Part shown: positions 11,643 through 51,479 of the stretch, piece after piece | Position numbering within the stretch: the stretch's first letter is position 1 | How the letters are laid out: each line of letters begins with the position of its first letter | Source of the DNA: a virus | Taxonomy: Duplodnaviria > Heunggongvirae > Uroviricota > Caudoviricetes | Strand: one strand, 5' to 3' | DNA length: 64,000 nt | IMG/VR virus record: IMGVR_UViG_3300017722_002988 | Coordinates: 67,760-131,759 of that record | The notes under the pieces: generated by a model | The model's database searches: none | Seen by the model: only the letters and a program-made list of their open reading frames with translations | Told to the model about the DNA's origin: nothing | Translations under genes and position numbers: made by a program

Positions 11643-11750
11643 GCTTAGCTCCTCTTACATTATCAATGTACACTTATAGGAAATGAAGTACACTGCCTTC
11701 TTAGCAATATTTATGTGTACATCATTTTCCTCGTGTCGTACATTGATAAA

Positions 11751-12395
11751 ATGAATCAGGACCGTTACAAGTACCCGAGCACGCCACACCTACCGTTGTC
11801 CAAAGGACGACAGTGGGATGACACCGCTCTTGACGGCTACGCAAACTTCATCGGCCACGAGGTCGTGATCACGGAGAAAATGGACGGTGAGAATGCTTCC
11901 CTTTACCATGACTACTATCACGCCAGATCCCTTGATTCTCGCCACCATCCTTCTCGTGATTGGATTAAGTCTTTTTGGGGTCGCGTTCGGTTTGACATTC
12001 CCGCCGGCTGGCGGTTCTGCGGTGAAAACCTCTACGCTGCTCACAGTGTCAAGTATGATTCTCTGCCTAGCTACTTTATGCTATTTAGCGTTTGGGGTCA
12101 TAACAATTATTCTCTGAGCTGGGATGAAGTCGAGTTCTGGGCAGATCTTCTGGGCATAGATACTGTGCCTGTCCTTTATCGTGGTCAATTTGACAAGACC
12201 ATCGTCGAGAAGATTGCTCGAGAACAGGATCCTGAGAAATCTGAGGGCTTCGTGATCCGGAATGCAGAGTCATTCCATTTTGATGACTTTGCCAAAAACA
12301 TGGGTAAGTACGTTCGAGTCAATCACGTACAAACCGACCAACATTGGATGTTCGCTGAGATCGTCCCAAACCAACTGAGAGACAGCAATGAGTGA
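11751..12395 (+). CDS. KxDG nucleotidyltransferase-superfamily ligase-like protein (putative RNA ligase)
   Basis: ITEKMDGENASL is a KxDG motif-I; start chosen at MNQDRYKY after the promoter box. Confidence 0.5.
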   Translation: MNQDRYKYPSTPHLPLSKGRQWDDTALDGYANFIGHEVVITEKMDGENASLYHDYYHARSLDSRHHPSRDWIKSFWGRVRFDIPAGWRFCGENLYAAHSVKYDSLPSYFMLFSVWGHNNYSLSWDEVEFWADLLGIDTVPVLYRGQFDKTIVEKIAREQDPEKSEGFVIRNAESFHFDDFAKNMGKYVRVNHVQTDQHWMFAEIVPNQLRDSNE

Positions 12396-12993
12396 GATCT
12401 TTTACACCTCTGACCTTCATTGGGGTCATGAGGCAACCTGCACCAAGTTTACCAGAAACGATGGGACTCCTCTTCGTCCATTCTCCTGTGCGCAAGAGAT
12501 GGACGAAGAGATGATCCGCCGTTGGAACGCAACTGTATCACCGAACGACAAAGTGTACGTGTTGGGCGATGTGGCTATGAGGAGCCAGCACCTGAAGACT
12601 ATGGGCCGGGTCAACGGCAAGAAGACTCTCATCCGGGGAAACCATGACATCTTCGACATCAGGGATTACCTGAAATACTTTTCCGAGGTCCATGCTATTC
12701 GGTATCCGGAAACCCGTGAGTTCGTCATGACGCATATTCCTCTGCACCCAGATTCGGTTCGTGAGAGGTATAAGTACAATATCCACGGGCATCTGCACGC
12801 CAACCGGGTGACTATCGAAGCCGAACGCACTATCAGAAAATATGCCGACGGATCCTTTGACAGTGAGATTGTTAGGGTCACTGACCCGATGTATTTGAAC
12901 GTGTGTGTTGAACACACCGACTACACTCCAATCTCACATGACGAGGTCCTCCGCCGGATTCGCCAACAGCAAGAGGATTTTAACAATGCCTGA
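12388..12993 (+). CDS. calcineurin-like metallophosphoesterase
   Basis: DLHWGH, GDV and GNHD motifs; coupled to the ligase-like gene. Confidence 0.8.
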   Translation: MSEIFYTSDLHWGHEATCTKFTRNDGTPLRPFSCAQEMDEEMIRRWNATVSPNDKVYVLGDVAMRSQHLKTMGRVNGKKTLIRGNHDIFDIRDYLKYFSEVHAIRYPETREFVMTHIPLHPDSVRERYKYNIHGHLHANRVTIEAERTIRKYADGSFDSEIVRVTDPMYLNVCVEHTDYTPISHDEVLRRIRQQQEDFNNA

Positions 12994-14725: not shown

Positions 14726-15850
14726 GTGAAATACCAATTTCCTGTCATCAACACGATCAATGACGTCCTTCCGCACCTCGATGGTCGGAAGGAGTTTGTC
14801 GTTGCCAACCGTGGTGACCACATCATCATCAACTACGCCGTGGCCTTCGCCGACACCTTCTGTCCGGTGACAACTCTCGGCGACGCGATCCGTCGTGAAT
14901 GCCGTGGCTTGATCTTTGATGCCAAGACCGGCAAGATCATCCGCCGTCCGTACCACAAGTTCTTCAATGTGGGCGAAAAGGAAGAGACCGACCCCAAGAT
15001 CATCGATGAACTGATCGACGCCATCTCGCTCGAGAAGCTCGATGGTTCGATGATCGCTCCTTATCCGGCCGCCGACGGTACGCTCCGTTGGGGCACCAAG
15101 ATGGGTGACACCGACGTGGCCAAGATGGTTCTTCCGTTCCTAACCGCGAACTCGAACTATGTTCAGTTCGCTCAGGTCGCTGTAGAATGTGGCCTTACTC
15201 CGATCTTCGAATTTTGCTCGCGTCAGCAGCGGATCGTCGTGGATTATGAGACCGAGCGCCTCGTTCTGACTGCGGTCCGCCATATGGAATCAGGTGCTTA
15301 TGTTGGCTATGACGGCCTGTGCGCTCTGGCCGATTCGTGGAGCATCGATGTCGTTGGGACCCTGGAGTTCGACAAAAACGCTGTCGGCGTCGAGGGTGTG
15401 GTCATCCGCCTGTCGGACGGCCACATGGCTAAGATGAAGGCCGAGTCATACATGCGTATCCACAAGGCCAAGGACAAGATCACGGTTGAGAAGAATGCCG
15501 TGGACGCCATCCTGAACAACGAGATCGATGACCTTCTGCCTGAACTTGGTCAGGAAGACCGTGACCGTGTTGTGGCTCTTGATGTTGCTCTTCATCGGTT
15601 TTTGGACAGCCGCTCGAAGATGTTGGCTTTAGAGGTGGCTGAAGACGTGGAGCTCTTCAAGGATAAGAAGACTTACGCTCTTGAGGCTCAACGCCCACAA
15701 TATATCAAGGCGGCTGTTTTCAAGATGTGGGATGAGCCGGAAGGTGCTTACGAGTACCTTATGGCCCAACTCACCAAGAGCCTGGGTAAGGAAGTCAACT
15801 ACGCTGACTTCAAGCGCATGTGGGGCTTCGACTATGACTATTCTCAGTAA
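14726..15850 (+). CDS. rnlA: RNA ligase 1 (T4 gp63 / Rnl1 family)
   Basis: 374 aa, matching T4 Rnl1 length; motif-I-like EKLDGSMIAPY, EGVVIR and the C-terminal HMAKMKAESYMRIHKAKD resemble Rnl1. Confidence 0.75.
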   Translation: MKYQFPVINTINDVLPHLDGRKEFVVANRGDHIIINYAVAFADTFCPVTTLGDAIRRECRGLIFDAKTGKIIRRPYHKFFNVGEKEETDPKIIDELIDAISLEKLDGSMIAPYPAADGTLRWGTKMGDTDVAKMVLPFLTANSNYVQFAQVAVECGLTPIFEFCSRQQRIVVDYETERLVLTAVRHMESGAYVGYDGLCALADSWSIDVVGTLEFDKNAVGVEGVVIRLSDGHMAKMKAESYMRIHKAKDKITVEKNAVDAILNNEIDDLLPELGQEDRDRVVALDVALHRFLDSRSKMLALEVAEDVELFKDKKTYALEAQRPQYIKAAVFKMWDEPEGAYEYLMAQLTKSLGKEVNYADFKRMWGFDYDYSQ

Positions 15851-23776: not shown

Positions 23777-23847
23777 AGGGGTGTGTTGTACGGGAGCATG
23801 CGGGCCTCCAAAACCTTGCGGCGGGGGTTCGAATCCCTCCACCCCTG
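23777..23847 (+). tRNA. tRNA-Trp(CCA)-like with a degenerate anticodon stem
   Basis: Acceptor AGGGGTG/CACCCCT; CTCCAAA loop; GGGGGTTCGAATCCCTC T-arm; encoded CCA; resembles E. coli tRNA-Trp. Confidence 0.5.
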
Positions 23848-27386: not shown

Positions 27387-27414
27387 CCATTATTTAATGT
27401 GCATCGAATAATAG

Positions 27415-27455
27415 TTGTGTACTTAATATCCCAGCCGATTAGAATGGGAAGATAA
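27415..27455 (+). promoter_or_regulatory. phage promoter motif upstream of the tRNA block
   Basis: TTGTGTAC, then TTAGAATGGGAAGATAAATA. Confidence 0.4.
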
Positions 27456-27468
27456 ATACAGACTTAAT

Positions 27469-27545
27469 GCTCGCGTATCTCCTCTGGCTACGAACCAGTT
27501 GAAAGAGTAACTGGATACATGGAGGTTCGACTCCTCTCGTGAGCG
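27469..27545 (+). tRNA. tRNA-like with an atypical 8-10-nt anticodon loop
   Basis: Perfect acceptor GCTCGCG/CGTGAGC; T-arm GGAGGTTCGACTCCTCT; CCAGTT-GAAAGAGT-AACTGG arm. Confidence 0.4.
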
Positions 27546-27559
27546 CCAATTCAAACAAT

Positions 27560-28742: not shown

Positions 28743-28936
28743 CCATAAGTTTGGAGTTACTCAGGAAGGGTGTCGCGACCTCTGAGAATAGTCTTAGACA
28801 ATGTTGGGTGCAACACCAACCTCCGAAGCCAATCATAGAGCTGCACCATGGTGGTGGCTAGCGTCTCATAAGCGCTAAGGTCGGGATCGTTACCCGATGG
28901 CTCTTCTCTAAAAAGTTCTGAGAAAATGCATTTTAG

Positions 28937-28976
28937 CTGTGTACATAATAACCAGCCAGTGTATATTGGGAGAATG
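28937..28976 (+). promoter_or_regulatory. phage promoter motif
   Basis: GTGTACATAATAA, then TATATTGGGAGAATGAG. Confidence 0.5.
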
Positions 28977-29047
28977 AGTTGAGCATCTAATGTTCCTCCT
29001 CTTCCACGGCAGCCCATCGGGTTGACGGCTTAGGATGAGACTGCCCT

Positions 29048-29077
29048 GGCAGACGGCTTGATAATAGTCTGCCACCA
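29048..29077 (+). ncRNA. acceptor-like mini-helix with encoded ACCA (GGCAGAC, 12-nt loop, GTCTGCC-ACCA)
   Basis: Perfect 7-bp stem followed by ACCA, then the AAGTTTAC spacer. Confidence 0.4.
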
Positions 29078-29085
29078 AAGTTTAC

Positions 29086-29160
29086 GGAGATGTCGTCTAA
29101 GACCGAGGACACCAGCGTAGAGCTGGAAATGGGGGTATCGAAATCCACCCTTCTCCACCA
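29086..29160 (+). ncRNA. degenerate tRNA-Glu-like unit with encoded CCA
   Basis: Acceptor GGAGATG/CTTCTCC; Glu-type D-arm TCGTCTAAGACCGAGGACACC; 5-nt-loop hairpin in place of the anticodon arm; GGTATCGAAATCC in place of the T-arm. Confidence 0.45.
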
Positions 29161-29168
29161 AAGTTTAC

Positions 29169-29242
29169 GGGCGGGTCGTCTAACATTTAGGACACCGGCA
29201 TTTGAGCCGGCAATGGTAGTGAAAATCTGCCCCCGCCCACCA
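29169..29242 (+). ncRNA. degenerate tRNA-Glu-like unit with encoded CCA
   Basis: Perfect acceptor GGGCGGG/CCCGCCC; D-arm TCGTCTAACATTTAGGACACC; preceded by the same AAGTTTAC spacer. Confidence 0.45.
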
Positions 29243-29450
29243 AATCAGCGATAGAGCCGGTTCGAGTCCGGCCCTGGGGTCAGCCCCGGGACTCTACTGG
29301 AGAGATGTGGCTGCTAGGAGCTAACCTAGAGGGAGTAACTGAGACAACCCTCGAACTGTTGGACTGCTGGAAAATCCGATAACCGCCTTCTCAGGCTGTG
29401 CAGGACCAGAGAGTTAGCTTCGAAACTATTTGTTAGTTCTGATAAAATAG

Positions 29451-29490
29451 TTGTGTACATTAAATCAGAACTGCTTAGAATGAGAATATA
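29451..29490 (+). promoter_or_regulatory. phage promoter motif driving a non-coding region
   Basis: TTGTGTACAT, then CTGCTTAGAATGAGAATATAAG; no ORF follows. Confidence 0.5.
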
Positions 29491-30190
29491 AGATTGAGGC
29501 AGGGTGATGAACCCGTTAAGTCCTCCCAAGTTCGTGCTGCCGGGTTCGAAACCGCCAGTAAGAAGAAAGCGTCCTCCTGTAGGAACCCTCGAGGGAGATC
29601 GGGGTTGCGACTGTCGCAGGGAGGATGGGGTAAAAGTCCTCACGAGATCCCACCATTTCGCTCGAATGAGCAAACAAGATTGAATGAACGTGTGTGCGCA
29701 ACGGGCCACATGTAACCCTCGGTTGGGGTTCATTCATAAGATTGCCGTGTGCGGCAAAAGTCTGGGTAACCAGATGACAGGGAACGCCTCCCATAGGCCT
29801 CCCGACCTCTCCGGAGGGTAAAGCACACCGAACGGGCTACGAGAGGAGACTCTCGGCTTCATGTACCAATCATGGAGATACGTCCTAAGGATGGGAACTG
29901 AAAAGCCGGCCCCTAGCCGATGGTGGGGGGTTCTAACGGCAGGTCCGCAAGACCTAGGTTCACGCAAACCATTCTAAGACCGATGGCAAACGTTCAGAGG
30001 GTACCGCAAGTCCGAGGCCGCAACCAAGGGCAGGTATCATATCGATAGGAGACGGGCATACGGGCCGAAGGGTTCTGAGGAGACGTCATCTAGAAGATTT
30101 TTCGAGTAACTCGCAAGGTGAAAGGAATGAGTCGTGTTGCATTCTGTAGGGTAAAAGCCTTATGGAACAACTGGTCAAGCACGACTTGGT
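29491..30190 (+). ncRNA. large structured non-coding RNA candidate (about 700 nt) rich in C-GCAA-G hairpins
   Basis: No + strand ORF; recurrent CGCAAG GNRA-type hairpins (AGGTCCGCAAGACCT, CTCGCAAGGTG and others); promoter upstream. Confidence 0.4.
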
Positions 30191-30195
30191 GGGTT

Positions 30196-30267
30196 CCAAA
30201 CATAGCTCATTGGTAGAGCAATCGCATTGAACGCGATAGGCTGTGGGTTCGATCCCCACTGTTTATT
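30196..30267 (+). tRNA. tRNA with anticodon TGA (type I body); acceptor pairs only partially
   Basis: Canonical D-arm AGCTCATTGGTAGAGCA, arm ATCGC-ATTGAAC-GCGAT and T-arm GTGGGTTCGATCCCCAC. Confidence 0.5.
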
Positions 30268-30609
30268 TAAAAAAGCAAAGACTTGACCGAGAGTAAGTGT
30301 AAGAAGCCAAATGCCACAGCCGTAAGGTAATGTGGTCACTTGAAGCTCGCAAGGCGGACGGTGTTGATGTACGGAAGTTCGTAAGGGGTTAGCGCCCTTG
30401 AGTGGCTCGCAAGGTCAGCGGATGGAAAGATGTCGAGTAGCTTGCTCTGCATGTTGGATGGTCACCAACTCAAAAACGACTGGCTTTGATCGGATACCCT
30501 ATCATGTATATAGGTGTGGAGATCTAGGGAATATGCCGGGTCGCACTGGCAGAATAATCCTAGGAGACTGATCATTTAAGCGAGTAACTCTCATCGCTTT
30601 ACAAACGAT

Positions 30610-31167
30610 TTAGGCACCCTCGGGTGTCTTTTTTCGTATTTGGGGGCTAATTCCTCTAAGCTTCATAGTAGCTGAAATTTTAGCTTTACGTTCTTCAGAA
30701 AATGGTTTGCCAATCATCAGTTTTCTTGCTGCTGAGATCTTAGCCTTTGCCTCTTCACTCATTGGTTTGGTGTTGCGGCGTGGTTTGCCAGTTTTAGATT
30801 TAGAAATCTTGGCCTTTGTTTCTTCAGAATGTCTATACACTTTGAGTTGCTCCACAACATTTTGTTTCACCGATTCATAAAATTTGGAACCACGCAGAGT
30901 CATCATTTTGATTGCCCTAGTTTGGCTACCTCCATATGTTTTCCATAACAAAAGATGTGCCACATAGTGTTCGCGTGGTGTTAGATCAATTCGATTCCAT
31001 GGATGGTCATAAAAACTTCCGTATTCTGGAAAGAGATCCTTTGCTCTTGGGCAAATATGGTGCTTTTCAATTGGACCGCTCTTAGGGGTTCTTGTTTCTA
31101 TGAATTTCACATAGCGGGCGAGTTGTCGCCCGTCGTGTGGTTTAGTTCTAAGAATTTCAGCTATCAT
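30610..31167 (-). CDS. HNH-type homing endonuclease with NUMOD3 repeats
   Basis: HHICPRAKD...N...H core; triple SEE(T/A)KAKIS NUMOD3-like repeats. Confidence 0.6.
   Translation of the reverse strand: MIAEILRTKPHDGRQLARYVKFIETRTPKSGPIEKHHICPRAKDLFPEYGSFYDHPWNRIDLTPREHYVAHLLLWKTYGGSQTRAIKMMTLRGSKFYESVKQNVVEQLKVYRHSEETKAKISKSKTGKPRRNTKPMSEEAKAKISAARKLMIGKPFSEERKAKISATMKLRGISPQIRKKTPEGA
30613..30636. terminator. rho-independent terminator (GGCACCC-TCG-GGTGTC-TTTTTT)
   Basis: GC stem plus T-run at the end of the non-coding transcript, abutting the 3' end of the minus-strand endonuclease gene. Confidence 0.65.
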
Positions 31168-31303: not shown

Positions 31304-32758
31304 ATGGACATTGCAACCATTCTCTTGCTCGCCGGTATCGCCCTTGGCGTTTTCGTCGCGCTTTGCCTGACGGTGTGGGTTATCACCAAACGACGGGTCG
31401 TTCCGACCAATATGACGCACATCGTGCAGCGAAAGAAGACCACCACTCTCTACGGACAAGGTCAAGTCGCCGGCAACGTTTACTACCACTGGCCAAAATG
31501 GATGCCGATCATCGGTATCGACGTTTCTGTCTTCCAAGGCTCAATCTTCGACGTGACGCTGAAAGACTATGAGGCATATGACGCAGGTCGACTGCCTTTC
31601 GTGGTTGACGTAAAGGCCTTCTTCCGAGTCGACGATGCTGATGTCGCTGCTAAGCGAGTCTCGACCTTCGAGGAGCTGAAAACCCAGCTGACCGCCGTCC
31701 TGCAAGGTTCGGTTCGTCGCATTCTGGCCACTAACGACCTCGAGACCATCATGCAAGACCGTTCCAAGCTGGGCGGCGAGTTCACTACCGAAGTGGATGA
31801 GCAGCTCAAGGAGTGGGGCGTGAAAACCGTCAAGTCTATCGAGTTCATGGATATCCGTGACTCCGGAGGCTCGAACGTCATCGACAACATCATGGCTAAA
31901 GAGAAGTCGCGTATCGACCGTGAATCTCGTGTGGCAGTTGCCGAGAACAACCGTGCTGCTGAGGAAAAGGAAATCGAGGCACGCCGTCAAGTCGAGCTTC
32001 AACGCCAAGACGCCGAACAACAAGTCGGCATTCGTACGGCTATGAAGGAACAAGTCGTGGGTCAAGCCGAGGAGCAATCCAAGCAAGAGATCTTGCTGCA
32101 GGCCAAGGTCACGACCGAACGCGACATGGACGTTAAGAAGGTGCAAGAGGTCCGTGCGGCCGACATCGCCAAGGACGTCGCCGTGGTTCGAGCCAATCAG
32201 GAAAAAGAGGTCCAGATCGTGGCCGCTAACGCTGCCAAGGAGCAGACCATCATCTCGGCTAACGCCACGAAGACGGAAACTGAGACCGTGGCTGCGGGTA
32301 ACCTGACGGCTGCCAAACTGTCCGCCGAAGGCACTCTCGCCACCGGTACGGCCGAAGCTGAGTCGCGCAAGCTGATGGAACTGGCACCCGTCCAAGCTCA
32401 GATCACGCTGGCTCAGGAGATCGGTGACAACGAAGGTTATCAGACCTACCTGCAAACCATCCGCCAGATCGAGGCCTCTCAGGCTGTCGGTATCGAACTG
32501 GCCGGCGCGATGGCCAAGGCCGACCTGAAGGTCATCGCCAACGCTGGAGACCCCCAATCGGGAGTCGCCAAGCTTGGTGACCTGTTCACCACGAGCGGAG
32601 GCACCGGGTTGACCGGAATGTTGACCGCTTTGTCTCAGACTCCTGAAGGCGCCGCTCTTGTGGAACGCGTTACCGGCAAGAAGGGCCCGACCCTGAATGC
32701 TGATGACATTGCTGAGGCAGTCATCGAAAAGGCAAGCGCCAAACGTCCTACCAAATAG
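31304..32758 (+). CDS. SPFH/band-7 (flotillin-like) membrane protein
   Basis: N-terminal transmembrane helix; SPFH core (VDVKAFFRV...LETIMQDR); long Ala/Glu/Gln-rich coiled coil; start chosen at the second ATG, which has an AGGA RBS. Confidence 0.7.
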   Translation: MDIATILLLAGIALGVFVALCLTVWVITKRRVVPTNMTHIVQRKKTTTLYGQGQVAGNVYYHWPKWMPIIGIDVSVFQGSIFDVTLKDYEAYDAGRLPFVVDVKAFFRVDDADVAAKRVSTFEELKTQLTAVLQGSVRRILATNDLETIMQDRSKLGGEFTTEVDEQLKEWGVKTVKSIEFMDIRDSGGSNVIDNIMAKEKSRIDRESRVAVAENNRAAEEKEIEARRQVELQRQDAEQQVGIRTAMKEQVVGQAEEQSKQEILLQAKVTTERDMDVKKVQEVRAADIAKDVAVVRANQEKEVQIVAANAAKEQTIISANATKTETETVAAGNLTAAKLSAEGTLATGTAEAESRKLMELAPVQAQITLAQEIGDNEGYQTYLQTIRQIEASQAVGIELAGAMAKADLKVIANAGDPQSGVAKLGDLFTTSGGTGLTGMLTALSQTPEGAALVERVTGKKGPTLNADDIAEAVIEKASAKRPTK

Positions 32759-33919: not shown

Positions 33920-34801
33920 ATGCTACTCCACACTCTAGAAAAGGACAAGTTGATCTCGCCGCCTCGTTGGCTGCCAGACAACACCGCCTATCTGACCGCC
34001 ATGGGCTCTGTTGCTTATGGCGTCAGCGGCGACATGTCCGACGTGGACATCTACGGATTCGCTATGCCTCCTAAGGATATGGTGTTCCCACATCTGGCCG
34101 GCCATATCCCTGGTTTCGGTCCTGCACCTCCGAAGTTCGAGTGCTGGGAGCAACACCACGTTCAGGATAAGAGCGGTAAGAAGGAATACGATTTCCAAGT
34201 CTTCTCCATAGTTCGGTTCTTCCACCTTCTGGTCGAGAACAACCCGAACATGACTGACTCGCTCTTCACTCCGGATCGTTGCGTTCTGCATCAGACTCGA
34301 GTGGCTCAGCTGGTCCGTGAGAACCGGAAGCTGTTCCTGCATAAGGGTGCCTACCACAAGTTCCGTGGGTACGCCTATCAGCAACTCAAGAAGGTTCAGG
34401 CAAAGACGCCTTCCAATCCGAAGCGTCAAGCTCTGGTCGATGCCTATGGCTACGACACCAAGTTCGCCTACCACATCGTTCGCCTAGCGCTCGAGTGCGA
34501 GGAGATCTTGACTCAGGGTAATCTGACTCTGGACGCGAACGTGGCGGTTCTGAAGGCTGTCCGTGAAGGACAGTGGACTTTGGAGCGGCTTGAGCAGTGG
34601 TTCGAAGGTAAGGAACTGCAACTCGAGCAGGCCAAGATGGACTCTAAGCTTCCAGAAGGTCCGAACTATGACGTGATCAAAGTGCTGCTCTTGCAGTGCC
34701 TGGAACAACACTACGGCGATCTGTCCAAGGCCGTTGCCAAGGATAACGGTGGCCAAAATGTCATCAACGAGGTCCAGGCTGTTCTGGATAGATATAGGTA
34801 G
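33920..34801 (+). CDS. Pol-beta-superfamily nucleotidyltransferase
   Basis: GSVAYGVSGDMSDVDIYG is a GS...D(x)D nucleotidyltransferase motif. Confidence 0.6.
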   Translation: MLLHTLEKDKLISPPRWLPDNTAYLTAMGSVAYGVSGDMSDVDIYGFAMPPKDMVFPHLAGHIPGFGPAPPKFECWEQHHVQDKSGKKEYDFQVFSIVRFFHLLVENNPNMTDSLFTPDRCVLHQTRVAQLVRENRKLFLHKGAYHKFRGYAYQQLKKVQAKTPSNPKRQALVDAYGYDTKFAYHIVRLALECEEILTQGNLTLDANVAVLKAVREGQWTLERLEQWFEGKELQLEQAKMDSKLPEGPNYDVIKVLLLQCLEQHYGDLSKAVAKDNGGQNVINEVQAVLDRYR

Positions 34802-35288: not shown

Positions 35289-35453
35289 ACGTGAGATGTT
35301 CGAACGGTCATTCCAACGGCCCTGCAACTTTATGGATCTAGGTCCATCGGAGCAGTGGGAGATCGATAAGAGTCTCGGCATTCTCGATTGGGAAGGAACG
35401 GGTCTTAACGAAGAGGACCTTAAGAGGTTCAACGCTCACTACCGCAAATAAGC

Positions 35454-35492
35454 TGTGTACATAATATCCCGGTGCTGTATATTGGGATTATG
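35454..35492 (+). promoter_or_regulatory. phage promoter motif
   Basis: GTGTACATAATA, then TGTATATTGGGATTATGAG. Confidence 0.5.
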
Positions 35493-35990: not shown

Positions 35991-36057
35991 TAACCTCGTC
36001 TTTACAGGGGTCGTAGACGTCAGCGTTAGGCGTGACCGGGGGAGAGTCTCCACCAAA
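35991..36057 (+). ncRNA. degenerate tRNA-like unit ending in CCACCA, followed by an AAATTTC spacer
   Basis: GTCGTAGACGTCAGCG... GGAGAGTCTCC-ACCA; same architecture as the 29086-29242 units. Confidence 0.35.
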
Positions 36058-36248: not shown

Positions 36249-36337
36249 GCGGCTGTCGTCTAAGACAGGACACCCTGATGAACCTCCCCGAGGTCATTCC
36301 GGCGCGGGGAGATCAGGTATCAAATCCTGCGGCTGCA
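36249..36337 (+). ncRNA. degenerate tRNA-Glu-like unit with encoded CCA
   Basis: Acceptor GCGGCTG/CGGCTGC with G:U pairs; Glu-type D-arm TCGTCTAAGACAGGACACC; hairpins in place of the anticodon arm; T-arm-like CAGGTATCAAATCCTG. Confidence 0.4.
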
Positions 36338-36352
36338 CCATTTTGAGATGAT

Positions 36353-36527
36353 CATGTCTGATAAGAAGATTGAAAAGAAGCGTCGTAAACTGCAAGAGCA
36401 GATCGATCTACTTGAAAATCAAGTTCGCAGTTCCCTCGGTAAGAAGGACAGCAGAACTGATGAGATCAATGTTCCAGATCTGATGAGAAAAATTGCGGAT
36501 TATCGAGCACAGATAACCCGTCTATAA
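36353..36527 (+). CDS. small coiled-coil protein (58 aa, not listed in the ORF track)
   Basis: ATG-initiated ORF between tRNA-like units (MSDKKIEKKRRKLQEQIDLLENQ...). Confidence 0.3.
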
Positions 36528-41853: not shown

Positions 41854-41925
41854 GCACCTATGGCCTAATGGTTAAGGCAGGGGTCTCTAAAACCTTGAAT
41901 CCGGGTTCGAGCCCCGGTAGGTGCA
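41854..41925 (+). tRNA. tRNA with anticodon CTA (amber-reading, suppressor-type)
   Basis: Perfect acceptor GCACCTA/TAGGTGC; D-arm GCCTAATGGTTAAGGC; arm GGGGT-CTCTAAA-ACCTT; T-arm CCGGGTTCGAGCCCCGG; CCA. Confidence 0.6.
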
Positions 41926-42181
41926 CCAAGTTTCAGTTTTCCCCTCAAGAGGGGAGATGGAGACCACAAAGGAGAGTGCTATCATGGACTAATCTGACTC
42001 TGTAGAGATAGAATGATTTTTGATAGATAAAGTTTAATTGGTAAGAACACCGTCCTCGAGACGAAAAGGAAAAAGATATGCATTCGTAGAATCGCTGTCA
42101 ACATGACCCTCCGTGATGTAAAGATCACATTACACTAAGACCACTTATGGTAACACCATCTTTACATTACGGAGACGTCAA

Positions 42182-44822: not shown

Positions 44823-44895
44823 GGACCCATCGTCTAACAGCCTAGGATGACTGCCCCTCAAGCAGTAGATGCCGGTGCGACTCCGGTTGGGTCTT
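44823..44895 (+). tRNA. tRNA-Glu(CTC)
   Basis: Glu-type D-arm GTCTAACAGCCTAGGATG; arm ACTGC-CCCTCAA-GCAGT; T-arm GCCGG-TGCGACT-CCGGT. Confidence 0.55.
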
Positions 44896-44904
44896 CCATA
44901 TTAT

Positions 44905-44977
44905 GCTCCCGTCGACTAGCGGTCTAGGTCGCCGCCCTTTCAAGGCGTAAACGCCGGTTCGAATCCGGTCGGGAGTA
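44905..44977 (+). tRNA. tRNA-Glu(TTC)
   Basis: Arm CCGCC-CTTTCAA-GGCGT as in E. coli tRNA-Glu; T-arm GCCGGTTCGAATCCGGT. Confidence 0.65.
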
Positions 44978-44993
44978 CCAATCAGGAGTGATT

Positions 44994-47472: not shown

Positions 47473-47542
47473 CCAGCCGTAGTGTAGGTTTGCACGGCAC
47501 CCATTTGGGGGTGTTAGACTAGGTTCAACTCCTAGCGGCCGG
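47473..47542 (+). tRNA. tRNA-like with a 6-nt anticodon loop
   Basis: Acceptor CCAGCCG/CGGCCGG; CACCC-ATTTGG-GGGTG; T-arm CTAGGTTCAACTCCTAG; CCA. Confidence 0.35.
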
Positions 47543-47741
47543 ACCAAGACCCGTCCTAAGGATTCTGTGGGACGTTAAATCACTAGGAATCGGGCTTTCT
47601 CTCCTTTGCCTTAAGAAAGGAGACTGGAATCAGCCTAGAAGAGCTGGTCGAAGTCCCGTAATGTGGCACCGCCTCCGTCCGGGCGACCCTCGCAAAGGGT
47701 TAAGAGATCGGCATGGTAACCGAAATCAGGCTTCCAATTTA

Positions 47742-47825: not shown

Positions 47826-47969
47826 CCAAATTTGATGCGGACCACCTCGGACGTGGTTGCCAAGTCTGGCCAGACGGTAGAAGCCCTCGGCCGAGGGCGG
47901 ACACTTATAAAGTGATTTGGGTAGGTGGTTCGAATCCGCCCACTTTGATGGCAACGCATCAACTCATTC

Positions 47970-50384: not shown

Positions 50385-50422
50385 GGTGTACTTAATTACC
50401 AATCGTTATAGTATGAGAATAT
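50385..50422 (+). promoter_or_regulatory. phage promoter motif
   Basis: GTGTACTTAATTACC, then TATAGTATGAGAATATGAC. Confidence 0.5.
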
Positions 50423-51479
50423 GACAATGATCAAATTTCCTTCCATCGAGCAGCTGCGGACGGTCGTAAAGAACGTCCAGCACCAGTCTCGATTTGCCGG
50501 TGTCGATGACACCGGGGAGCCCATCTTTGACAGCACTCGGCCCATCCCGACCCTTCGGTTTGTTGGCACGGTGAAGCTACATGGCACAAACGCCGGTATC
50601 GTTCTGGATCGTACCGGAACTGACTTCATCTACCAGTCCCGTGAGCGTGTTCTGACTCTTGAAGCTGACAACGCTGGTTTCATGGCCCATATGCAGGCTA
50701 ATCAGGACAGCGTCGATACGCTGTTCGCAACTGTCATGCTGCAGATTGAAGATCTCGACTCAGTCAAGTTCATCTGCATCTACGGCGAATGGTGTGGCGG
50801 AAACATTCAAAAAGGGGTCGGCATCTCCGGTCTTCCCAAGATGTTTGTGGTGTTCGGTATCAAGGTCATCTACGAGACTGACGATGACGGCTCCGAAGGT
50901 GTGTGGATTCCGGTTCAAAACATCCAATACGAAGACAAGGATGCTGGCATCTACAATGTCCATCAGTTCGGTTCTTGGACGATCGACATCGACTTCAACC
51001 ATCCCCAACTGTCTCAGCCCAAGCTCATCGAGCTGACCGAGATGGTTGAGGCTGAGTGCCCTGCCGGCAAGTTCTTCGGAAACACTGGTATCGGCGAGGG
51101 CATCGTCTGGCACTGTGAAGAGCCTGGCTTTACCTCTAGCCGCCTGTGGTTCAAGGTGAAGGGCGAGAAGCACTCTGTCTCCAAGGTCAAGACGCTGGCT
51201 CCGGTCGATGTTGAGGCCTACAAGAAGCAGCAGGACTTCATCGACTCTGTCGTGACCGAAGCTCGGCTGGAACAAGGCATTCAGAATCTCATCAACGAAC
51301 AGCAGAAGCCGTTCGAGATGGCGTCCATGGGTGACTTCATTCGTTGGGTCTTCAATGACATCGTCAAGGAAGAGACTGACACAATCGAGGCCAACGGCTT
51401 TGACTCTAAGAAGCTCGGTGGTCCTATTGCCAATAAGGCACGGCCCTGGTTCATTCAGCGGCTGAACAGCGAAGGTTAA
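50421..51479 (+). CDS. rnlB: RNA ligase 2 (T4 Rnl2 family)
   Basis: Motif I KLHGTN (T4 Rnl2 has KIHGTN); IYGEWCGGNIQKGVGI resembles VFGEFAGPGIQKNVDY; FVVFGI resembles FYVFDI; 352 aa. Confidence 0.75.
   Translation: MTMIKFPSIEQLRTVVKNVQHQSRFAGVDDTGEPIFDSTRPIPTLRFVGTVKLHGTNAGIVLDRTGTDFIYQSRERVLTLEADNAGFMAHMQANQDSVDTLFATVMLQIEDLDSVKFICIYGEWCGGNIQKGVGISGLPKMFVVFGIKVIYETDDDGSEGVWIPVQNIQYEDKDAGIYNVHQFGSWTIDIDFNHPQLSQPKLIELTEMVEAECPAGKFFGNTGIGEGIVWHCEEPGFTSSRLWFKVKGEKHSVSKVKTLAPVDVEAYKKQQDFIDSVVTEARLEQGIQNLINEQQKPFEMASMGDFIRWVFNDIVKEETDTIEANGFDSKKLGGPIANKARPWFIQRLNSEG

What the first reader, a model, noticed from the sequence alone, without database searches (positions are those of the whole stretch)
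29048..29242. Tandem degenerate tRNA-Glu-derived units with genomically encoded CCA, separated by a fixed AAGTTTAC spacer
A mini-helix (29048-29077, ending ACCA) is followed by two units (29086-29160 and 29169-29242). Each has good acceptor stems, an E. coli tRNA-Glu-type D-arm (TCGTCTAA...GGACACC), short hairpins in place of the anticodon arm, an aberrant T-arm (GGTATCGAAATCC) and an encoded ACCA, each followed by AAGTTTAC. Similar units lie at 35991-36057 and 36249-36337, while true tRNA-Glu(CTC and TTC) genes are at 44823 and 44905. Anticodon-less tRNA mimics with CCA ends may be processing-punctuation elements, CCA-adding or RNase P/Z decoys, or baits for host tRNA-targeting defence nucleases.
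Basis: seen in the sequence. Interest (0 to 1): 0.6.

Follow-up and report, generated by a model that had tools for sequence, protein, structure and literature searches.

The report
Anticodon-dead tRNA-like array beside GOLLD
A T4-like freshwater phage carries, under its own promoter and just upstream of its giant GOLLD RNA, a CCA-tailed mini-hairpin followed by a variable number of tRNA look-alikes that keep the tRNA body and CCA end but cannot read codons, and their role is unknown, possibly as mimics or decoys rather than adaptors.

Summary
29048-29077 is a 7-bp hairpin ending in ACCA. 29086-29160 and 29169-29242 are cloverleaf tRNA-like units with a Glu-type D arm, a 4-nt variable loop and an encoded ACCA, but anticodon loops of 5 and 6 nt. 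AAGTTTAC precedes each unit.

- Only unit 1 has the GGTATCGAAATCC T arm.
- Unit 2 is not followed by the spacer.
- 35991-36057 is not a unit, whereas 36249-36340 is.

Seven related metagenomic phage loci (eight genomes with the window) keep the same layout: promoter P1, leader hairpins, minihelix-ACCA, then 1-4 units, lying upstream of the GOLLD RNA. Stems are kept through compensatory changes. Anticodon loops vary freely (5, 6 or 7 nt, mostly 6), and so do copy number and some acceptor pairs.

CCA ends and A/U-rich spacers are shared with the phage's genuine tRNA genes, so the units are probably processed like tRNAs. I read them as functional, non-decoding tRNA mimics (about 0.4). Their most likely role is as decoys for factors that bind the acceptor end or tRNA body, in a phage that carries three RNA ligases and RlaP. 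Neutral duplication-and-decay (0.25) and RNase P punctuation (0.2) remain live. They are a new variant of the pseudo-tRNA or tRNA-like kind, and the lineage is narrow.

The parts
28936..28967 (+). Promoter-like element P1 (-35 TGTACA at 28940, 16-nt spacer, -10 TATATT ending at 28967), one of a phage promoter family
   Evidence: Promoter scan. The motif GCTGTGTACATAATAA recurs at 35452, with weaker copies at 27414 and 29449 ahead of other RNA genes. The -35 is invariant except for one base (L033) and the -10 is invariant in 4 aligned genomes.
28968..29047 (+). Leader: hairpin H1 (28968-29005), hairpin H2 (29007-29027) and a linker
   Evidence: Consensus fold of 7 genomes. H2 has compensatory changes at two pairs.
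29048..29077 (+). Acceptor-like minihelix: 7-bp stem GGCAGAC/GTCTGCC, 12-nt loop, 3' ACCA
   Evidence: Fold z -3.45. Present in all 8 genomes. L033 has GAGGAG/CTCCTC and L176 has GGGAGG/CCTCCC with an identical loop, which is three compensatory pairs. All carry ACCA plus an A/U-rich spacer.
29078..29085 (+). Spacer AAGTTTAC
   Evidence: Exact 8-mer at 29078 and 29161. Similar trailers and leaders flank genuine tRNAs of this phage.
29086..29160 (+). Unit 1: tRNA-like, Glu-type D arm, 5-nt anticodon loop GUAGA, degraded T arm (9-nt loop), ACCA
   Evidence: Identical in L157, L169 and L170; absent in L177, L032 and L176. The closest paralogue is L033 uB, which has a canonical T arm.
29161..29168 (+). 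Spacer AAGTTTAC
29169..29242 (+). Unit 2: perfect cloverleaf, 6-nt anticodon loop AUUUGA, T loop UGAAAAU, D loop without GG, ACCA
   Evidence: Rfam tRNA 41 bits; fold z -3.85. Orthologues in 7 genomes: 95.9% of cells paired and 6 pairs with changes on both sides, reached by 0 of 500 shuffles.
29243..29452 (+). Constant downstream block: T-arm-like hairpin 29256-29272, GC hairpin 29273-29290, then a nearly invariant structured core. Probably part of the same transcript.
   Evidence: Alignment and consensus fold of 5 genomes, with covariation in the T-arm-like hairpin. No Rfam family. Absent in L032.
29454..29481 (+). Promoter-like element P2 (TGTACA, 16-nt spacer, TAGAAT)
   Evidence: conserved in relatives.
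29738..30600 (+). GOLLD RNA (Rfam match 30129-30597) with an embedded CCA-less tRNA-like at 30196-30267. Context for the array, not part of it.
   Evidence: RF02032 173.5 bits. The block is 92-96% conserved from 29738 onward in L032, L033, L157, L170, L176 and L177. A terminator-like hairpin plus T run lies at 30612-30640.
36249..36340 (+). Unit 3: the same D arm and ACCA, with a 26-27-nt insertion (hairpin plus tail) in the anticodon loop and an 8-nt T loop UAUCAAAU
   Evidence: Unit-model hit, with orthologues in L032, L033, L157 and L170. The T stem covaries (A-U, C-G, U-A), and so do the acceptor stem and the insert hairpin.
44823..44898 (+). Genuine phage tRNA-Glu(CUC), the closest in-genome D arm to the units
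   Evidence: Rfam 45.4 bits; sequence.
44905..44980 (+). Genuine phage tRNA-Glu(UUC)
   Evidence: ARAGORN and Rfam 57.3 bits.

Best explanation
The region is a small RNA operon of a T4-like phage. A phage promoter (P1) drives a structured leader, an acceptor-stem minihelix ending in ACCA, and then one to four tRNA paralogues. These paralogues keep the tRNA body (acceptor, Glu-type D arm, 4-nt variable loop, T arm) and an encoded ACCA, but their anticodon loops are 5, 6, rarely 7, or about 27 nt long and not conserved. They cannot act as adaptors.

Shown here:
- the anatomy
- the conservation of the layout in eight genomes
- compensatory maintenance of the stems
- the free variation of the anticodon loops
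- the shared flanks with genuine tRNA genes

Inferred:
- The units are cut out like tRNAs. RNase P would cleave at G+1 of each unit, which also frees the upstream module. 3' trimming would run back to the ACCA, and the A/U-rich AAGUUUAC spacer would serve as the cleavage context. The products would be stable 30-nt and roughly 75-nt CCA-ended RNAs.
- The array arose and changes copy number by segmental duplication and cassette exchange in a tRNA island rich in homing endonucleases.

Most likely role (inference, about 0.4 in all): every module shares only a G-started helix running into ACCA on a tRNA-shaped body. They would therefore act off the ribosome as mimics or decoys for host factors that recognise the acceptor end or tRNA shape. 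Examples are abortive-infection toxins that modify the CCA end or cut the acceptor stem. This would happen during the tRNA-centred conflict for which this phage also carries three RNA ligases, a phosphoesterase and RlaP.
For: Anatomy and statistics.

The same architecture (P1, leader, minihelix-ACCA, 1-4 units) is found in L169, L157, L170/L171, L177, L032, L033 and L176.

Structure is kept by compensatory change:
- Unit-2 orthologues: 95.9% of cells paired; 6 pairs changed on both sides against 1.4 in shuffles (0 of 500); D, anticodon and T stems 97-100% paired.
- Minihelix: GAGGAG/CTCCTC against GGGAGG/CCTCCC with an identical loop.
- L176 against L033 uA: four substitutions in the T stem and none in the T loop UUAAACU.
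- Unit 3: the T stem appears as A-U, C-G and U-A, and the insert hairpin covaries.
- A site-2 unit keeps its 6-nt loop UUAGCG while its stem covaries.

Other support:
- ACCA is present in 11 of 12 distinct units and in all minihelices.
- The promoter hexamers are invariant or nearly so (one -35 base differs in L033) and belong to a family that precedes other RNA genes.
- Genuine tRNAs of the phage share the encoded CCA and AAGTTT-type flanks.
- Context: an Rnl1-like ligase, two Rnl2-type ligases, a metallophosphoesterase, RlaP and several homing endonucleases.

Literature:
- Antiphage toxSAS enzymes bind the universal CCA end and read acceptor pairs 1, 2, 4 and 5 (PMC11559606).
- MenT toxins extend acceptor ends (PMC10435456).
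- Phages escape tRNA-targeting defences through tRNA genes and SegB-driven tandem amplification (PMC11555353, PMC13096335).
Against: - There are no expression or processing data.
- Four of seven unit-2 orthologues carry acceptor mismatches: G3.A70 in L157, G2.A71 plus A3.G70 in L170, A5.C68 in L177 and U2.U71 in L176.
- Unit 1 has a G.A mismatch and a 9-nt loop in its T arm, where its relative uB is canonical.
- L032 u1' lacks CCA.
- Copy number changes between phages whose flanking protein is at least 98% identical.
- Part of the apparent covariation could have been imported by recombination between paralogues.
- The whole tRNA island is mosaic, so variability is not special to the units.
- tRNA-likes with 6-nt loops occur at low frequency in many phage tRNA islands.
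- The locus is confined to a narrow lineage. Relatives whose SPFH protein is 63-64% identical have neither GOLLD nor the array there.
- No target of the proposed mimicry is known.
Confidence: 0.4

Rival explanations
1. Neutral birth-and-death. The units are redundant copies thrown up by segmental amplification or cassette exchange in the tRNA island. They lost decoding through small indels in the anticodon loop and are on their way out. They persist only because they are young and sit inside a transcribed block.
For: - Copy number is 1-4 and the set of units differs between very close relatives.
- There are acceptor mismatches in 4 of 7 unit-2 orthologues.
- Unit 1 has a degraded T arm, and L032 u1' lacks CCA.
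- The island is mosaic even for genuine tRNAs.
- 35991-36057 looks like the 3' remnant of a unit.
- tRNA-likes with 6-nt loops are scattered in unrelated phage tRNA islands: 5 of 86 and 10 of 1014 ARAGORN calls.
- SegB-type amplification of tRNA segments has been shown experimentally in T6 (PMC13096335).
Against: - At least one unit and the minihelix are retained at the same place in all 8 genomes, down to about 84% nucleotide identity.
- Internal stems are 97-100% paired, with changes on both sides and no breaks.
- Stems change while loops stay fixed (minihelix and T arm of L033 against L176), which is the opposite of neutral decay.
- Unit 3 is conserved in 5 genomes with three Watson-Crick variants at one T-stem pair.
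- ACCA is kept in 11 of 12 units.
- Indels are confined to the anticodon loop rather than spread over the gene.
Confidence: 0.25
2. Processing punctuation. The tRNA shape is kept only as an RNase P (and 3'-trimming) signal that releases and stabilises the co-transcribed constant RNAs, namely the leader-minihelix upstream and the constant block or GOLLD precursor downstream. This would work as mascRNA does for MALAT1, or as the tRNA-like parts of herpesvirus TMERs do. The excised units themselves would be by-products.
For: - The units sit exactly between conserved structured RNAs under one promoter.
- One unit is enough (L176), and extra copies vary freely.
- The anticodon region is unconstrained, while the acceptor, D and T stems and the ACCA, which favour bacterial RNase P, are kept.
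- The 8-nt spacers resemble those between genuine tRNAs of the phage.
- A second cassette site between P2 and GOLLD holds further tRNA-likes in L032, L033 and L176.
Against: - L032 lacks the downstream constant block yet keeps two units.
- The idea does not explain why the leader should end in a hairpin plus ACCA.
- It does not explain why unit 3 carries a conserved structured insertion.
- It does not explain why one site-2 unit keeps a fixed 6-nt loop.
- Genuine tRNAs nearby could do the same job.
- P2 gives GOLLD its own promoter.
Confidence: 0.2
3. Partners or cargo of GOLLD. The free CCA-ended tRNA-likes, together with the tRNA-like covalently embedded in GOLLD, would form one functional system with the GOLLD nanocage.
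For: - The array lies 500 nt upstream of GOLLD in every genome that has it.
- GOLLD itself carries a tRNA-like whose anticodon also varies freely between close relatives.
- GOLLD genes are typically found in phage tRNA islands, and tRNAs occur in the GOLLD linker. The cryo-EM paper speculates that the cage may hold phage tRNAs (PMC12286853).
Against: - Adjacency may only reflect the general placement of GOLLD inside tRNA islands.
- The phiCbK GOLLD locus has no comparable array.
- No complementarity or covariation between the units and GOLLD was found or systematically tested.
Confidence: 0.07
4. Non-ribosomal aminoacyl carriers. The units would be charged (for example with Glu, through the Glu-type augmented D helix) and donate the amino acid to a phage enzyme, as the non-proteinogenic tRNA-Gly does in cell-wall synthesis or as in tRNA-dependent DNA hypermodification.
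For: - U11-A24, U13.G22, A46 and the 4-nt variable loop of tRNA-Glu are kept in all units.
- The weakened D-loop/T-loop elbow resembles tRNAs that avoid EF-Tu (established knowledge; not tested here).
- tRNA-dependent DNA modification by a phage enzyme exists (PMC13219725, title and abstract only).
Against: - GluRS depends strongly on the anticodon (established knowledge), which is absent here.
- The acceptor stems are not conserved between units.
- No candidate transferase was seen in the window.
- The minihelix has no obvious identity element (no G3.U70).
Confidence: 0.04
5. Unusual decoding tRNAs (frameshift or doublet decoding) with 6-nt anticodon loops.
For: ARAGORN calls several orthologues as tRNAs with two-base anticodons.
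Against: - Loop length (5, 6, 7, about 27 nt) and sequence change between close relatives.
- U33 is often missing.
- The T and D loops lack the conserved elbow residues.
Confidence: 0.02

Closest known systems
Phage-encoded tRNA genes and 'pseudo-tRNA' or undetermined tRNA calls in the tRNA islands of T4-like and jumbo phages
   Same: - Cloverleaf structure, encoded CCA and A/U-rich flanks.
- Location inside a homing-endonuclease-rich tRNA island.
- The D arm and 4-nt variable loop of the phage's own tRNA-Glu(CUC).
- Similar anticodon-defective Glu/Gln-type tRNA-likes exist in unrelated IMG/VR contigs, for example L179, L191, L197, L221 and L212.
   Different: - Anticodon loops of 5 or 6 nt, with no fixed anticodon.
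- Non-canonical T and D loops.
- Arranged as a promoter-driven array that begins with a minihelix-ACCA.
- Layout and stems are conserved by compensatory change in eight genomes.
tRNA or pseudo-tRNA embedded in, or next to, GOLLD RNA (Rfam RF02032; PMC12286853, PMC6582537)
   Same: - A tRNA-like element tied to a GOLLD locus in a phage tRNA island.
- A variable anticodon.
   Different: - The embedded element (30196-30267) lies inside GOLLD, has a 7-nt loop, an A/U-rich acceptor stem and no CCA.
- The array units are separate genes about 500 nt or more upstream of GOLLD, behind another promoter, and each has ACCA and tRNA-type spacers.
tRNA-like processing elements: mascRNA at the MALAT1 3' end, and the tRNA-like parts of murine gammaherpesvirus 68 TMERs (established knowledge, from memory)
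   Same: - tRNA-shaped, not used for decoding, and carrying a CCA end.
- They serve as RNase P/Z cleavage signals for a neighbouring non-coding RNA.
   Different: - Those are eukaryotic or herpesviral, and their CCA is added after transcription.
- Here the CCA is encoded, the units are tandem and variable in number, and no cleavage has been shown.
Small stable RNAs C and D (species 1 and 2) of the phage T4 tRNA operon (from memory)
   Same: - Non-tRNA stable RNAs co-transcribed and co-processed with tRNAs in a T4-type tRNA cluster.
- Function still unknown.
   Different: No sequence relation was tested. The T4 RNAs are not anticodon-shortened tRNA-Glu paralogues and are not arranged behind a minihelix.
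Non-decoding bacterial tRNAs: Bacillus cereus tRNA-Other and the Staphylococcus non-proteinogenic tRNA-Gly (from memory)
   Same: - tRNA paralogues kept for a role off the ribosome.
- Altered T-loop and D-loop elbow residues.
   Different: Those keep a 7-nt anticodon loop, and the tRNA-Gly species are aminoacylated. Here the loop length itself is broken and charging is unknown.
Acceptor minihelix or microhelix substrates of RNase P, the CCA-adding enzyme and some synthetases, and tRNA-like structures at viral RNA 3' ends (from memory)
   Same: A short helix running into ACCA. In L033 and L176 the loop is complementary to an upstream stretch, which could form a pseudoknot next to the ACCA.
   Different: - A natural, DNA-encoded, promoter-proximal element in a phage.
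- No G3.U70 or other known identity element.
- No pseudoknot in the window's version.

Membership tests
Canonical decoding tRNA (Rfam RF00005) | Cloverleaf with 7-bp acceptor, 4-bp D, 5-bp anticodon and 5-bp T stems | tested here: met
   Unit 2 forms a perfect cloverleaf. Unit 1 forms a cloverleaf with one acceptor mismatch and a poor T stem. Across 13 distinct units plus genuine Glu tRNAs, 91.5% of cells are paired.
Canonical decoding tRNA (Rfam RF00005) | Score at or above the Rfam gathering threshold (29 bits) | tested here: inconclusive
   Unit 2 scores 41 bits with lax filters but is not reported in the two larger searches. Unit 1 gives no match at E up to 10. ARAGORN calls neither.
Canonical decoding tRNA (Rfam RF00005) | 7-nt anticodon loop with U33 and a 3-nt anticodon | tested here: not met
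   Loops are GUAGA (5 nt) and AUUUGA (6 nt). Orthologues and paralogues have 6-nt loops (AUUUGC, AUACGA, UUCGGU, GGACAC, GUUAAC, GUUCAG) or 7-nt loops (CGUUGGG, AUUAGAG), and unit 3 has about 27 nt.
Canonical decoding tRNA (Rfam RF00005) | Conserved elbow residues (G18 G19 in the D loop; T54 Psi55 C56 ... A58 in the T loop) | tested here: not met
   Unit 2 has D loop AACAUUUA and T loop UGAAAAU. Unit 1 has D loop AAGACCGA and T loop UAUCGAAAU.
Canonical decoding tRNA (Rfam RF00005) | 3' CCA end after a discriminator base | tested here: met
   ACCA is encoded in both units, the minihelix and unit 3, as in about 33 of 38 tRNA genes of the window.
Canonical decoding tRNA (Rfam RF00005) | Aminoacylation and use on the ribosome | not testable with these tools
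   Needs charging assays or tRNA sequencing.
tRNA-Glu isoacceptor | Augmented D helix (U11-A24, U13.G22, A46, no residue 47), from established E. coli identity work | tested here: met
   D stem GUCU/GGAC and a 4-nt variable loop with A at the third position in all units. The same D arm also occurs in phage tRNA-Gln genes of IMG/VR, so it is Glu/Gln-type.
tRNA-Glu isoacceptor | Anticodon YUC in a 7-nt loop | tested here: not met
   See the loops listed above. The genuine Glu tRNAs are at 44823 and 44905.
GOLLD RNA (RF02032) | Lies within the GOLLD transcript or model | tested here: not met
   The Rfam match is 30129-30597 and the conserved GOLLD block starts near 29738. The array ends at 29242, and a second promoter-like site lies at 29454-29481 in between.
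tmRNA (standard or permuted) | tRNA-Ala-like acceptor with G3.U70, a tag reading frame, and detection by ARAGORN or Rfam | tested here: not met
   There is no tmRNA call in or near the array and no tmRNA match in 28880-30140 at E up to 10; the only tmRNA-model match in the window overlaps tRNA-Trp at 23777 at 20.9 bits, below the gathering score of 47. The third pair of the minihelix is C-G. By contrast, the phiCbK GOLLD locus does hold a permuted tmRNA.
YrlA / Y RNA-like tRNA mimics (RF02553) | Rfam match; tRNA-like module joined to a Ro-binding stem | tested here: not met
   No match in the window at gathering or E-value thresholds.
Decaying tRNA pseudogene | No selective maintenance: stems break at the same rate as loops change, and the element is not retained in relatives | tested here: inconclusive
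   Against decay: internal stems are 97-100% paired with 4-6 changes on both sides, and the element is retained in 8 of 8 genomes. For decay: acceptor mismatches in 4 of 7 orthologues, a degraded T arm in unit 1, and copy-number flux.
tRNA-like processing signal (mascRNA / TMER type) | RNase P cleavage at the 5' end of the element generates the mature end of the neighbouring RNA | not testable with these tools
   Only the position between conserved RNAs and the tRNA-type flanks could be shown.

The most novel reading that the evidence does not exclude
The P1 array and GOLLD form one RNA-only counter-defence system. The phage would flood the cell with anticodon-dead, CCA-ended acceptor mimics (the minihelix plus the tRNA bodies), possibly displayed or gathered by the GOLLD nanocage, which carries its own variable tRNA-like. 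These would titrate abortive-infection enzymes that recognise the CCA end, acceptor stem or tRNA body (toxSAS such as CapRel and FaRel2, MenT/AbiEii-type nucleotidyltransferases, acceptor-stem tRNases) without disturbing translation. The fast turnover of acceptor stems, loops and copy number would be the trace of that arms race.
Probability: 0.08. Interest if true: 0.9.

Novelty: new variant of a known kind. Interest (0 to 1): 0.55.

Why it matters
Phage tRNA genes are now known to be weapons against tRNA-targeting immunity, but annotation discards tRNA-likes whose anticodon loop is the wrong length as pseudogenes. This locus shows such elements organised as a promoter-driven array headed by a CCA-tailed minihelix. 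Their stems are kept by compensatory change while the anticodon region runs free. The array sits directly beside GOLLD, a giant phage RNA whose function is a long-standing open question.

If the units are functional mimics, they would be an RNA-based counter-defence or regulatory class that current pipelines miss. A quick survey found comparable Glu/Gln-type tRNA-likes with 3- to 10-nt loops in unrelated viral contigs. They would also offer a concrete handle on what GOLLD loci do.

If they are only decaying duplicates, they still document how fast tRNA islands turn over in T4-like phages.

Tried and rejected
- **Known phages.** Megablast of 25 kb against the phage collection found nothing. Distant blastn matched only the GOLLD 3' domain of Caulobacter phiCbK-like phages, whose locus has no comparable array.
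- **IMG/VR, D-arm pattern.** A fixed-spacing pattern gave 5 unrelated hits.
- **IMG/VR, CCACCAAAGTTTAC.** The 14-mer gave 120 chance hits, none next to a Glu-type D arm.
- **IMG/VR and genome collection, other patterns.** Patterns for unit 3 and for the constant block found nothing in IMG/VR. The constant-block pattern also found nothing in the genome collection.
- **Distant protein relatives.** Relatives of SPFH or RlaP (25-63% identity in IMG/VR and JGI, 63-64% in ENA and Logan) lack the locus.
- **tmRNA or two-piece tmRNA reading of leader plus minihelix.** Rejected: no G3.U70, and no ARAGORN or Rfam support.
- **Intron reading of the unit-3 insertion.** Rejected: removing the hairpin leaves 8-9 nt with no common anticodon.
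- **Long-stem fold that RNAfold gives for unit 3.** Rejected: the covarying position pairs within the T stem, not with the invariant CCCTGAT.
- **Kissing between unit loops and other loops.** Unit 2's AUUUGA is complementary to unit 3's T loop UCAAAU in the window. This does not hold in L157 or L032, so I treat it as chance.
- **Coding reading.** ORF 29090-29254 (54 aa) is rejected, because whole units come and go between relatives.
- **Ranking the units' parent tRNA by overall identity.** No discrimination, all about 0.6-0.67.
- **Genomic copies of tRNAs repaired after wobble-base excision (RloC type).** Considered from memory as an explanation for the 6-nt loops. There is no evidence for it, and the encoded CCA is general in this phage.
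Full report
**What the window is.** All 38 ARAGORN tRNA calls lie on the + strand between 23.7 and 48 kb. Rfam adds a GOLLD RNA at 30129-30597 with a tRNA embedded in it.
- The proteins are T4-like: gp45 clamp, gp44 clamp loader, UvsX/RecA, family-B polymerase and a DnaB-type helicase.
- There are also NAMPT and a NadR-like enzyme, several homing endonucleases and a notable RNA-repair set. That set comprises an Rnl1-like ligase, two PF09414 ligases, a metallophosphoesterase and RlaP.
- The polymerase is 44% identical to those of Sinorhizobium phiM12-type phages and cyanomyoviruses.
- No catalogued phage matches at the DNA level.

**The observation.**
- 29048-29077 is a 7-bp hairpin (GGCAGAC/GTCTGCC) with a 12-nt loop followed by ACCA. 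It folds far better than shuffles (z -3.45).
- Unit 1 (29086-29160) and unit 2 (29169-29242) fold as cloverleaves (z -2.36 and -3.85).
- Both have a D arm of the E. coli tRNA-Glu type (UC GUCU ... GGAC A), a 4-nt variable loop, a normal 5-bp anticodon stem and an encoded ACCA. Their anticodon loops are 5 nt (GUAGA) and 6 nt (AUUUGA).
- Unit 2 reaches 41 bits on the Rfam tRNA model when the filters are lax. ARAGORN and the filtered Rfam runs miss it. Unit 1 does not reach any Rfam threshold.
- The D-arm motif occurs three times in 64 kb against 0.08 expected. The exact spacer AAGTTTAC occurs at 29078 and 29161 and only once elsewhere.

- The GGTATCGAAATCC T arm belongs to unit 1 only.
- Unit 2 is not followed by the spacer.
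- 35991-36057 is not a unit (fold z 0.10, no model hit, not conserved).
- 36249-36340 is a unit.
- The encoded CCA and AAGTTT-type flanks are shared with the genuine tRNA genes of this phage. Examples are ACCA-AAGTTTG after tRNA-Leu(GAG) and AGTTAC|G leaders. The flanks therefore say 'treated like a tRNA gene', not 'special punctuation'.
- 'tRNA-Glu-derived' rests on the D arm and variable loop. The closest in-genome D arm is tRNA-Glu(CUC) at 44823, but whole-length identity does not single out Glu. In IMG/VR the same D arm serves both Glu and Gln tRNAs.

**Relatives.** The flanking SPFH/flotillin gene (31304-32758) led to related loci from Logan, ENA and JGI assemblies. These are L169 (98.6% nucleotide identity over the locus), L157, L170 (identical to L171 over the array), L177, L032, L033 and L176. 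All keep one architecture:
- a promoter-like site P1 (-35 TGTACA, -10 TATATT; both invariant in four aligned genomes apart from one -35 base in L033)
- a leader with two hairpins, H2 showing covariation
- the minihelix ending in ACCA
- a variable set of units

The sets of units are:

| Genome | Units after the minihelix |
|---|---|
| window, L169, L157 | u1 + u2 |
| L170 | uX + u1 + u2 + u4 |
| L177 | uX + u2 |
| L032 | u1' + u2 |
| L033 | uA + uB + uC |
| L176 | a single uA-type unit |

Downstream come a nearly invariant structured block (29243-29452, absent in L032) and a second promoter-like site P2. A second cassette site follows, empty in the window but holding further tRNA-likes in L032, L033 and L176. 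Then come GOLLD (conserved from about 29738) and a terminator-like hairpin at 30612.

P1 belongs to a promoter family that also precedes other RNA genes at 27414 and 35452. SPFH relatives at 63-64% identity have ordinary genes there instead, so the locus is confined to a narrow lineage.

**Evidence that structure is selected.**
- Among seven unit-2 orthologues, 95.9% of pair cells are standard pairs. Six pairs show changes on both sides, against 1.4 in shuffles (0 of 500). The D, anticodon and T stems are 97-100% paired.
- L176 against L033 uA has four substitutions in the T stem (GGUAG/CUGCC to GGGGG/CCUCC) and none in the odd T loop UUAAACU.
- The minihelix of L033 against L176 has three compensatory pairs (GAGGAG/CUCCUC against GGGAGG/CCUCCC) around an identical 10-nt loop.
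- Unit 3 (36249-36340) is conserved in five genomes. One T-stem pair appears as A-U, C-G and U-A. The acceptor pairs change on both sides. The 26-27-nt insertion in the anticodon loop keeps a hairpin through covariation (UGAaCCUC..GAGGUCA, UAACCUC-UUCG-GAGGUUA, AACCUC..GAGaGUU). All five end in ACCA.
- A site-2 unit keeps its 6-nt loop UUAGCG while its stem changes from CUCAC/GUGAG to CCCAU/AUGGG.
- ACCA is present in 11 of 12 distinct units and in every minihelix.

**Evidence for relaxed constraint.**
- The anticodon loops differ in length and sequence between close relatives. Six nucleotides is the commonest length.

| Unit | Anticodon loop |
|---|---|
| u1 | GUAGA |
| u2 | AUUUGA, AUUUGC, CGUUGGG |
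| uA | AUACGA, GUUCAG |
| uB | UUCGGU |
| uC | AAACAA |
| uX | GGACAC |
| u1' | GUUAAC |
| u4 | AUUAGAG |

- Four of seven unit-2 orthologues carry acceptor mismatches.
- Unit 1's T arm looks like a damaged version of uB's canonical one.
- L032 u1' has lost CCA.
- Copy number changes between phages whose SPFH proteins are at least 98% identical.
- The whole island is mosaic: genuine tRNAs are also only 70-100% identical between relatives.
- Some 'covariation' could have been imported by recombination among paralogues.

**How general is this?** A scan of IMG/VR for TCGTCTAA-N5-9-GGACACC stopped at 120 loci (121 matches).
- Seventy matches are canonical Glu, Gln or Lys tRNAs. Two have 10-nt loops.
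- Among the 49 that ARAGORN does not call, about 15 are clear tRNA-likes. They have loops of 3, 4, 6 or 9 nt or aberrant T loops, usually an AAAT or AGAT variable loop, and often CCA. One contig has two degenerate copies in tandem.
- ARAGORN calls with two-base anticodons make up 5 of 86 tRNAs in viral loci fetched for unrelated reasons, and 10 of 1014 in the loci selected by D arm. Several tRNA types are involved.
- Anticodon-defective tRNA-likes are thus a recurrent, low-frequency feature of phage tRNA islands. The new points here are the organised, promoter-driven array headed by a minihelix, its maintenance across a lineage and its place beside GOLLD.
- Literal literature searches found no description of such arrays. 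tRNAs or pseudo-tRNAs inside GOLLD are known (PMC12286853, PMC6582537).

**How it most likely works.** Three things are shown: the modules are tRNA-shaped, CCA-ended, flanked like real tRNA genes and placed behind a conserved promoter; their stems are maintained; their anticodon region is not.

Two things are inferred. First, they are excised by the tRNA maturation enzymes. RNase P would cut at each G+1, which with 8-nt spacers also frees the upstream module. That is how some E. coli polycistronic tRNA transcripts are separated (from memory). AAG|UUU also fits the RNase E preference, again from memory. Second, they then accumulate as RNAs that cannot decode.

The only feature common to the minihelix, the short-loop units and unit 3 is a G-started helix running into ACCA on a stable body. 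I therefore favour a role through the acceptor end or tRNA shape, as mimics or decoys for host factors. The context fits:
- The phage invests heavily in tRNA repair.
- Antiphage toxSAS enzymes bind the CCA end and read acceptor pairs 1, 2, 4 and 5 (PMC11559606).
- MenT toxins extend acceptor ends (PMC10435456).
- Phages answer tRNA-directed defences with tRNA genes and with tandem amplification driven by a homing endonuclease (PMC11555353, PMC13096335). That mechanism also offers an origin for the array and its copy-number flux.

None of this is direct evidence, so I put the statement at 0.4.

**Rivals.**
- Neutral birth-and-death (0.25) explains the turnover, the mismatches and the damaged unit 1. 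It does not explain retention in 8 of 8 genomes, stems changing while loops stay fixed, or unit 3.
- RNase P punctuation for the flanking constant RNAs (0.2) explains why one unit suffices and why anticodon loops are free. It does not explain the ACCA-tailed minihelix, the units kept in L032 without the downstream block, or the conserved insertion of unit 3.
- A functional tie to the GOLLD cage (0.07), aminoacyl carriers (0.04) and unusual decoding (0.02) are not excluded but lack support.

**Comparison and novelty.** The units fail the defining decoding features of a tRNA (7-nt loop with U33, elbow residues). They meet the cloverleaf and CCA features, so they are tRNA-like, not tRNAs. They are not part of the GOLLD model, not tmRNA and not YrlA.

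Functionally the nearest analogies are tRNA-like processing elements (mascRNA, herpesvirus TMERs), the unexplained stable RNAs of the T4 tRNA operon and non-decoding bacterial tRNAs. I rate this a new variant of a known kind, of moderate interest (0.55). It is real, structured and conserved, and it bears on both phage tRNA warfare and the GOLLD question. However, it is lineage-restricted, partly degenerate and without functional data.

Noticed in passing
window 29738-30600 (embedded element 30196-30267); L157, L032, L033, L155, L169, L177: The GOLLD RNA carries an embedded, CCA-less tRNA-like. Its 7-nt loop differs between close relatives whose GOLLD is 92-96% identical: UGA (window, L169, L170, L177), CUU (L157), UUA (L032), UUC (L033), and an 8-nt loop in L155. 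In phiCbK-like Caulobacter phages the same embedded tRNA is annotated as Lys in some records and Gly in others.
   Followed up: partly
window 29243-29452: A nearly invariant structured RNA block lies between the array and P2. It has a T-arm-like hairpin with an A-U/G-C covariation, a GC hairpin and a core of about 110 nt. It matches no Rfam family, is more conserved than the units, and is absent in L032.
   Followed up: partly
window 36249-36340: A tRNA-like with the same Glu-type D arm and ACCA carries a 26-27-nt insertion (hairpin plus 7-8-nt tail) in the anticodon loop and an 8-nt T loop. It is conserved in five genomes with covariation in the T stem, acceptor stem and insert hairpin, and it lies directly upstream of a small ORF (36348-36527).
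   Followed up: yes
window 27414-27445, 28936-28967, 29449-29481, 35452-35483: A family of promoter-like sites (TAG-yTGTGTACwTAATAw ... TAkAwT-GGGA) lies ahead of RNA genes and one small ORF. It is probably the phage promoter type that drives the tRNA island.
   Followed up: partly
window 41854-41928: A tRNA with anticodon CUA (an amber-suppressor type, which ARAGORN labels Pyl) scores 65 bits on the Rfam tRNA model and is conserved in L170, L171 and L172. I did not examine whether TAG is read through or reassigned in this phage.
   Followed up: no
window 11715-12395, 12388-12993, 14726-15850, 33920-34801, 50421-51479: The window holds an unusually rich RNA-repair set: two PF09414 RNA ligases, a metallophosphoesterase, a T4 Rnl1-like ligase and an RlaP nucleotidyltransferase. 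This suggests strong pressure from tRNA- or RNA-cleaving host defences.
   Followed up: partly
window 27469-27548, 28837-28906, 47473-47546, 47874-47947: Further odd tRNA-likes:
- An 80-nt element with a good acceptor stem and GCCA but an abnormal core, right after the promoter at 27414.
- A Met-like gene without CCA and with T loop AUCGUUA.
- A tRNA-like of a different D-arm type with a 6-nt loop AUUUGG and ACCA.
- A 'Tyr(AUA)' call without CCA.
   Followed up: partly
L033 1872-2029, L032 5303-5383, L176 2825-2982 (equivalent to window about 29680-29738, empty there): A second cassette site between P2 and GOLLD holds other tRNA-likes in relatives. One type has a long variable region, GCCA and a conserved 6-nt loop UUAGCG with stem covariation. 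Another (GGTTCTT...ACCA) has a 6-nt loop in L033 and a 7-nt loop in L176.
   Followed up: partly
L033 1160-1205, L176 2270-2313: In these two relatives the minihelix loop (CAGUUGUGGA) is complementary to an upstream stretch (UCCACAA or CCACAA). This could form a pseudoknot right next to the ACCA end, reminiscent of the tRNA-like 3' ends of plant viruses. The window's version shows no such complementarity.
   Followed up: no
IMG/VR loci L179, L181, L191, L197, L212/L227, L221, L263, L266, L284; also L004, L005: Unrelated viral contigs carry Glu/Gln-type tRNA-likes with anticodon loops of 3, 4, 6, 10 or about 22 nt, AAAT or AGAT variable loops, aberrant T loops and often CCA. L181 has two degenerate copies in tandem. 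This points to a wider, unannotated class.
   Followed up: partly
window 30610-31167 (- strand); L170 8619-9887, L171 6857-8125: The slot between GOLLD and the SPFH gene holds a 185-aa NUMOD3 homing-endonuclease-like ORF in the window and an unrelated 422-aa ORF in L170, L171 and L172. Together with the SegE-like and NUMOD3-type genes at 37241 and 26668, this fits endonuclease-driven mosaicism of the island.
   Followed up: no
L171 10162-10281, L173, L174, L176 6090-6200: Some relatives carry a small ORF matching ArfA (alternative ribosome-rescue factor, PF03889) between the SPFH and RlaP genes. Cpn10 and a class II aldolase are conserved nearby.
   Followed up: no
L178 (Caulobacter phage phiCbK 101468-108852), 2657-3096 on the - strand: The phiCbK GOLLD locus lies next to a permuted (two-piece) tmRNA gene and two tRNA-Met genes, and a tRNA-Cys just after GOLLD is not annotated in the record. 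GOLLD loci thus seem to gather several translation-related RNAs.
   Followed up: partly
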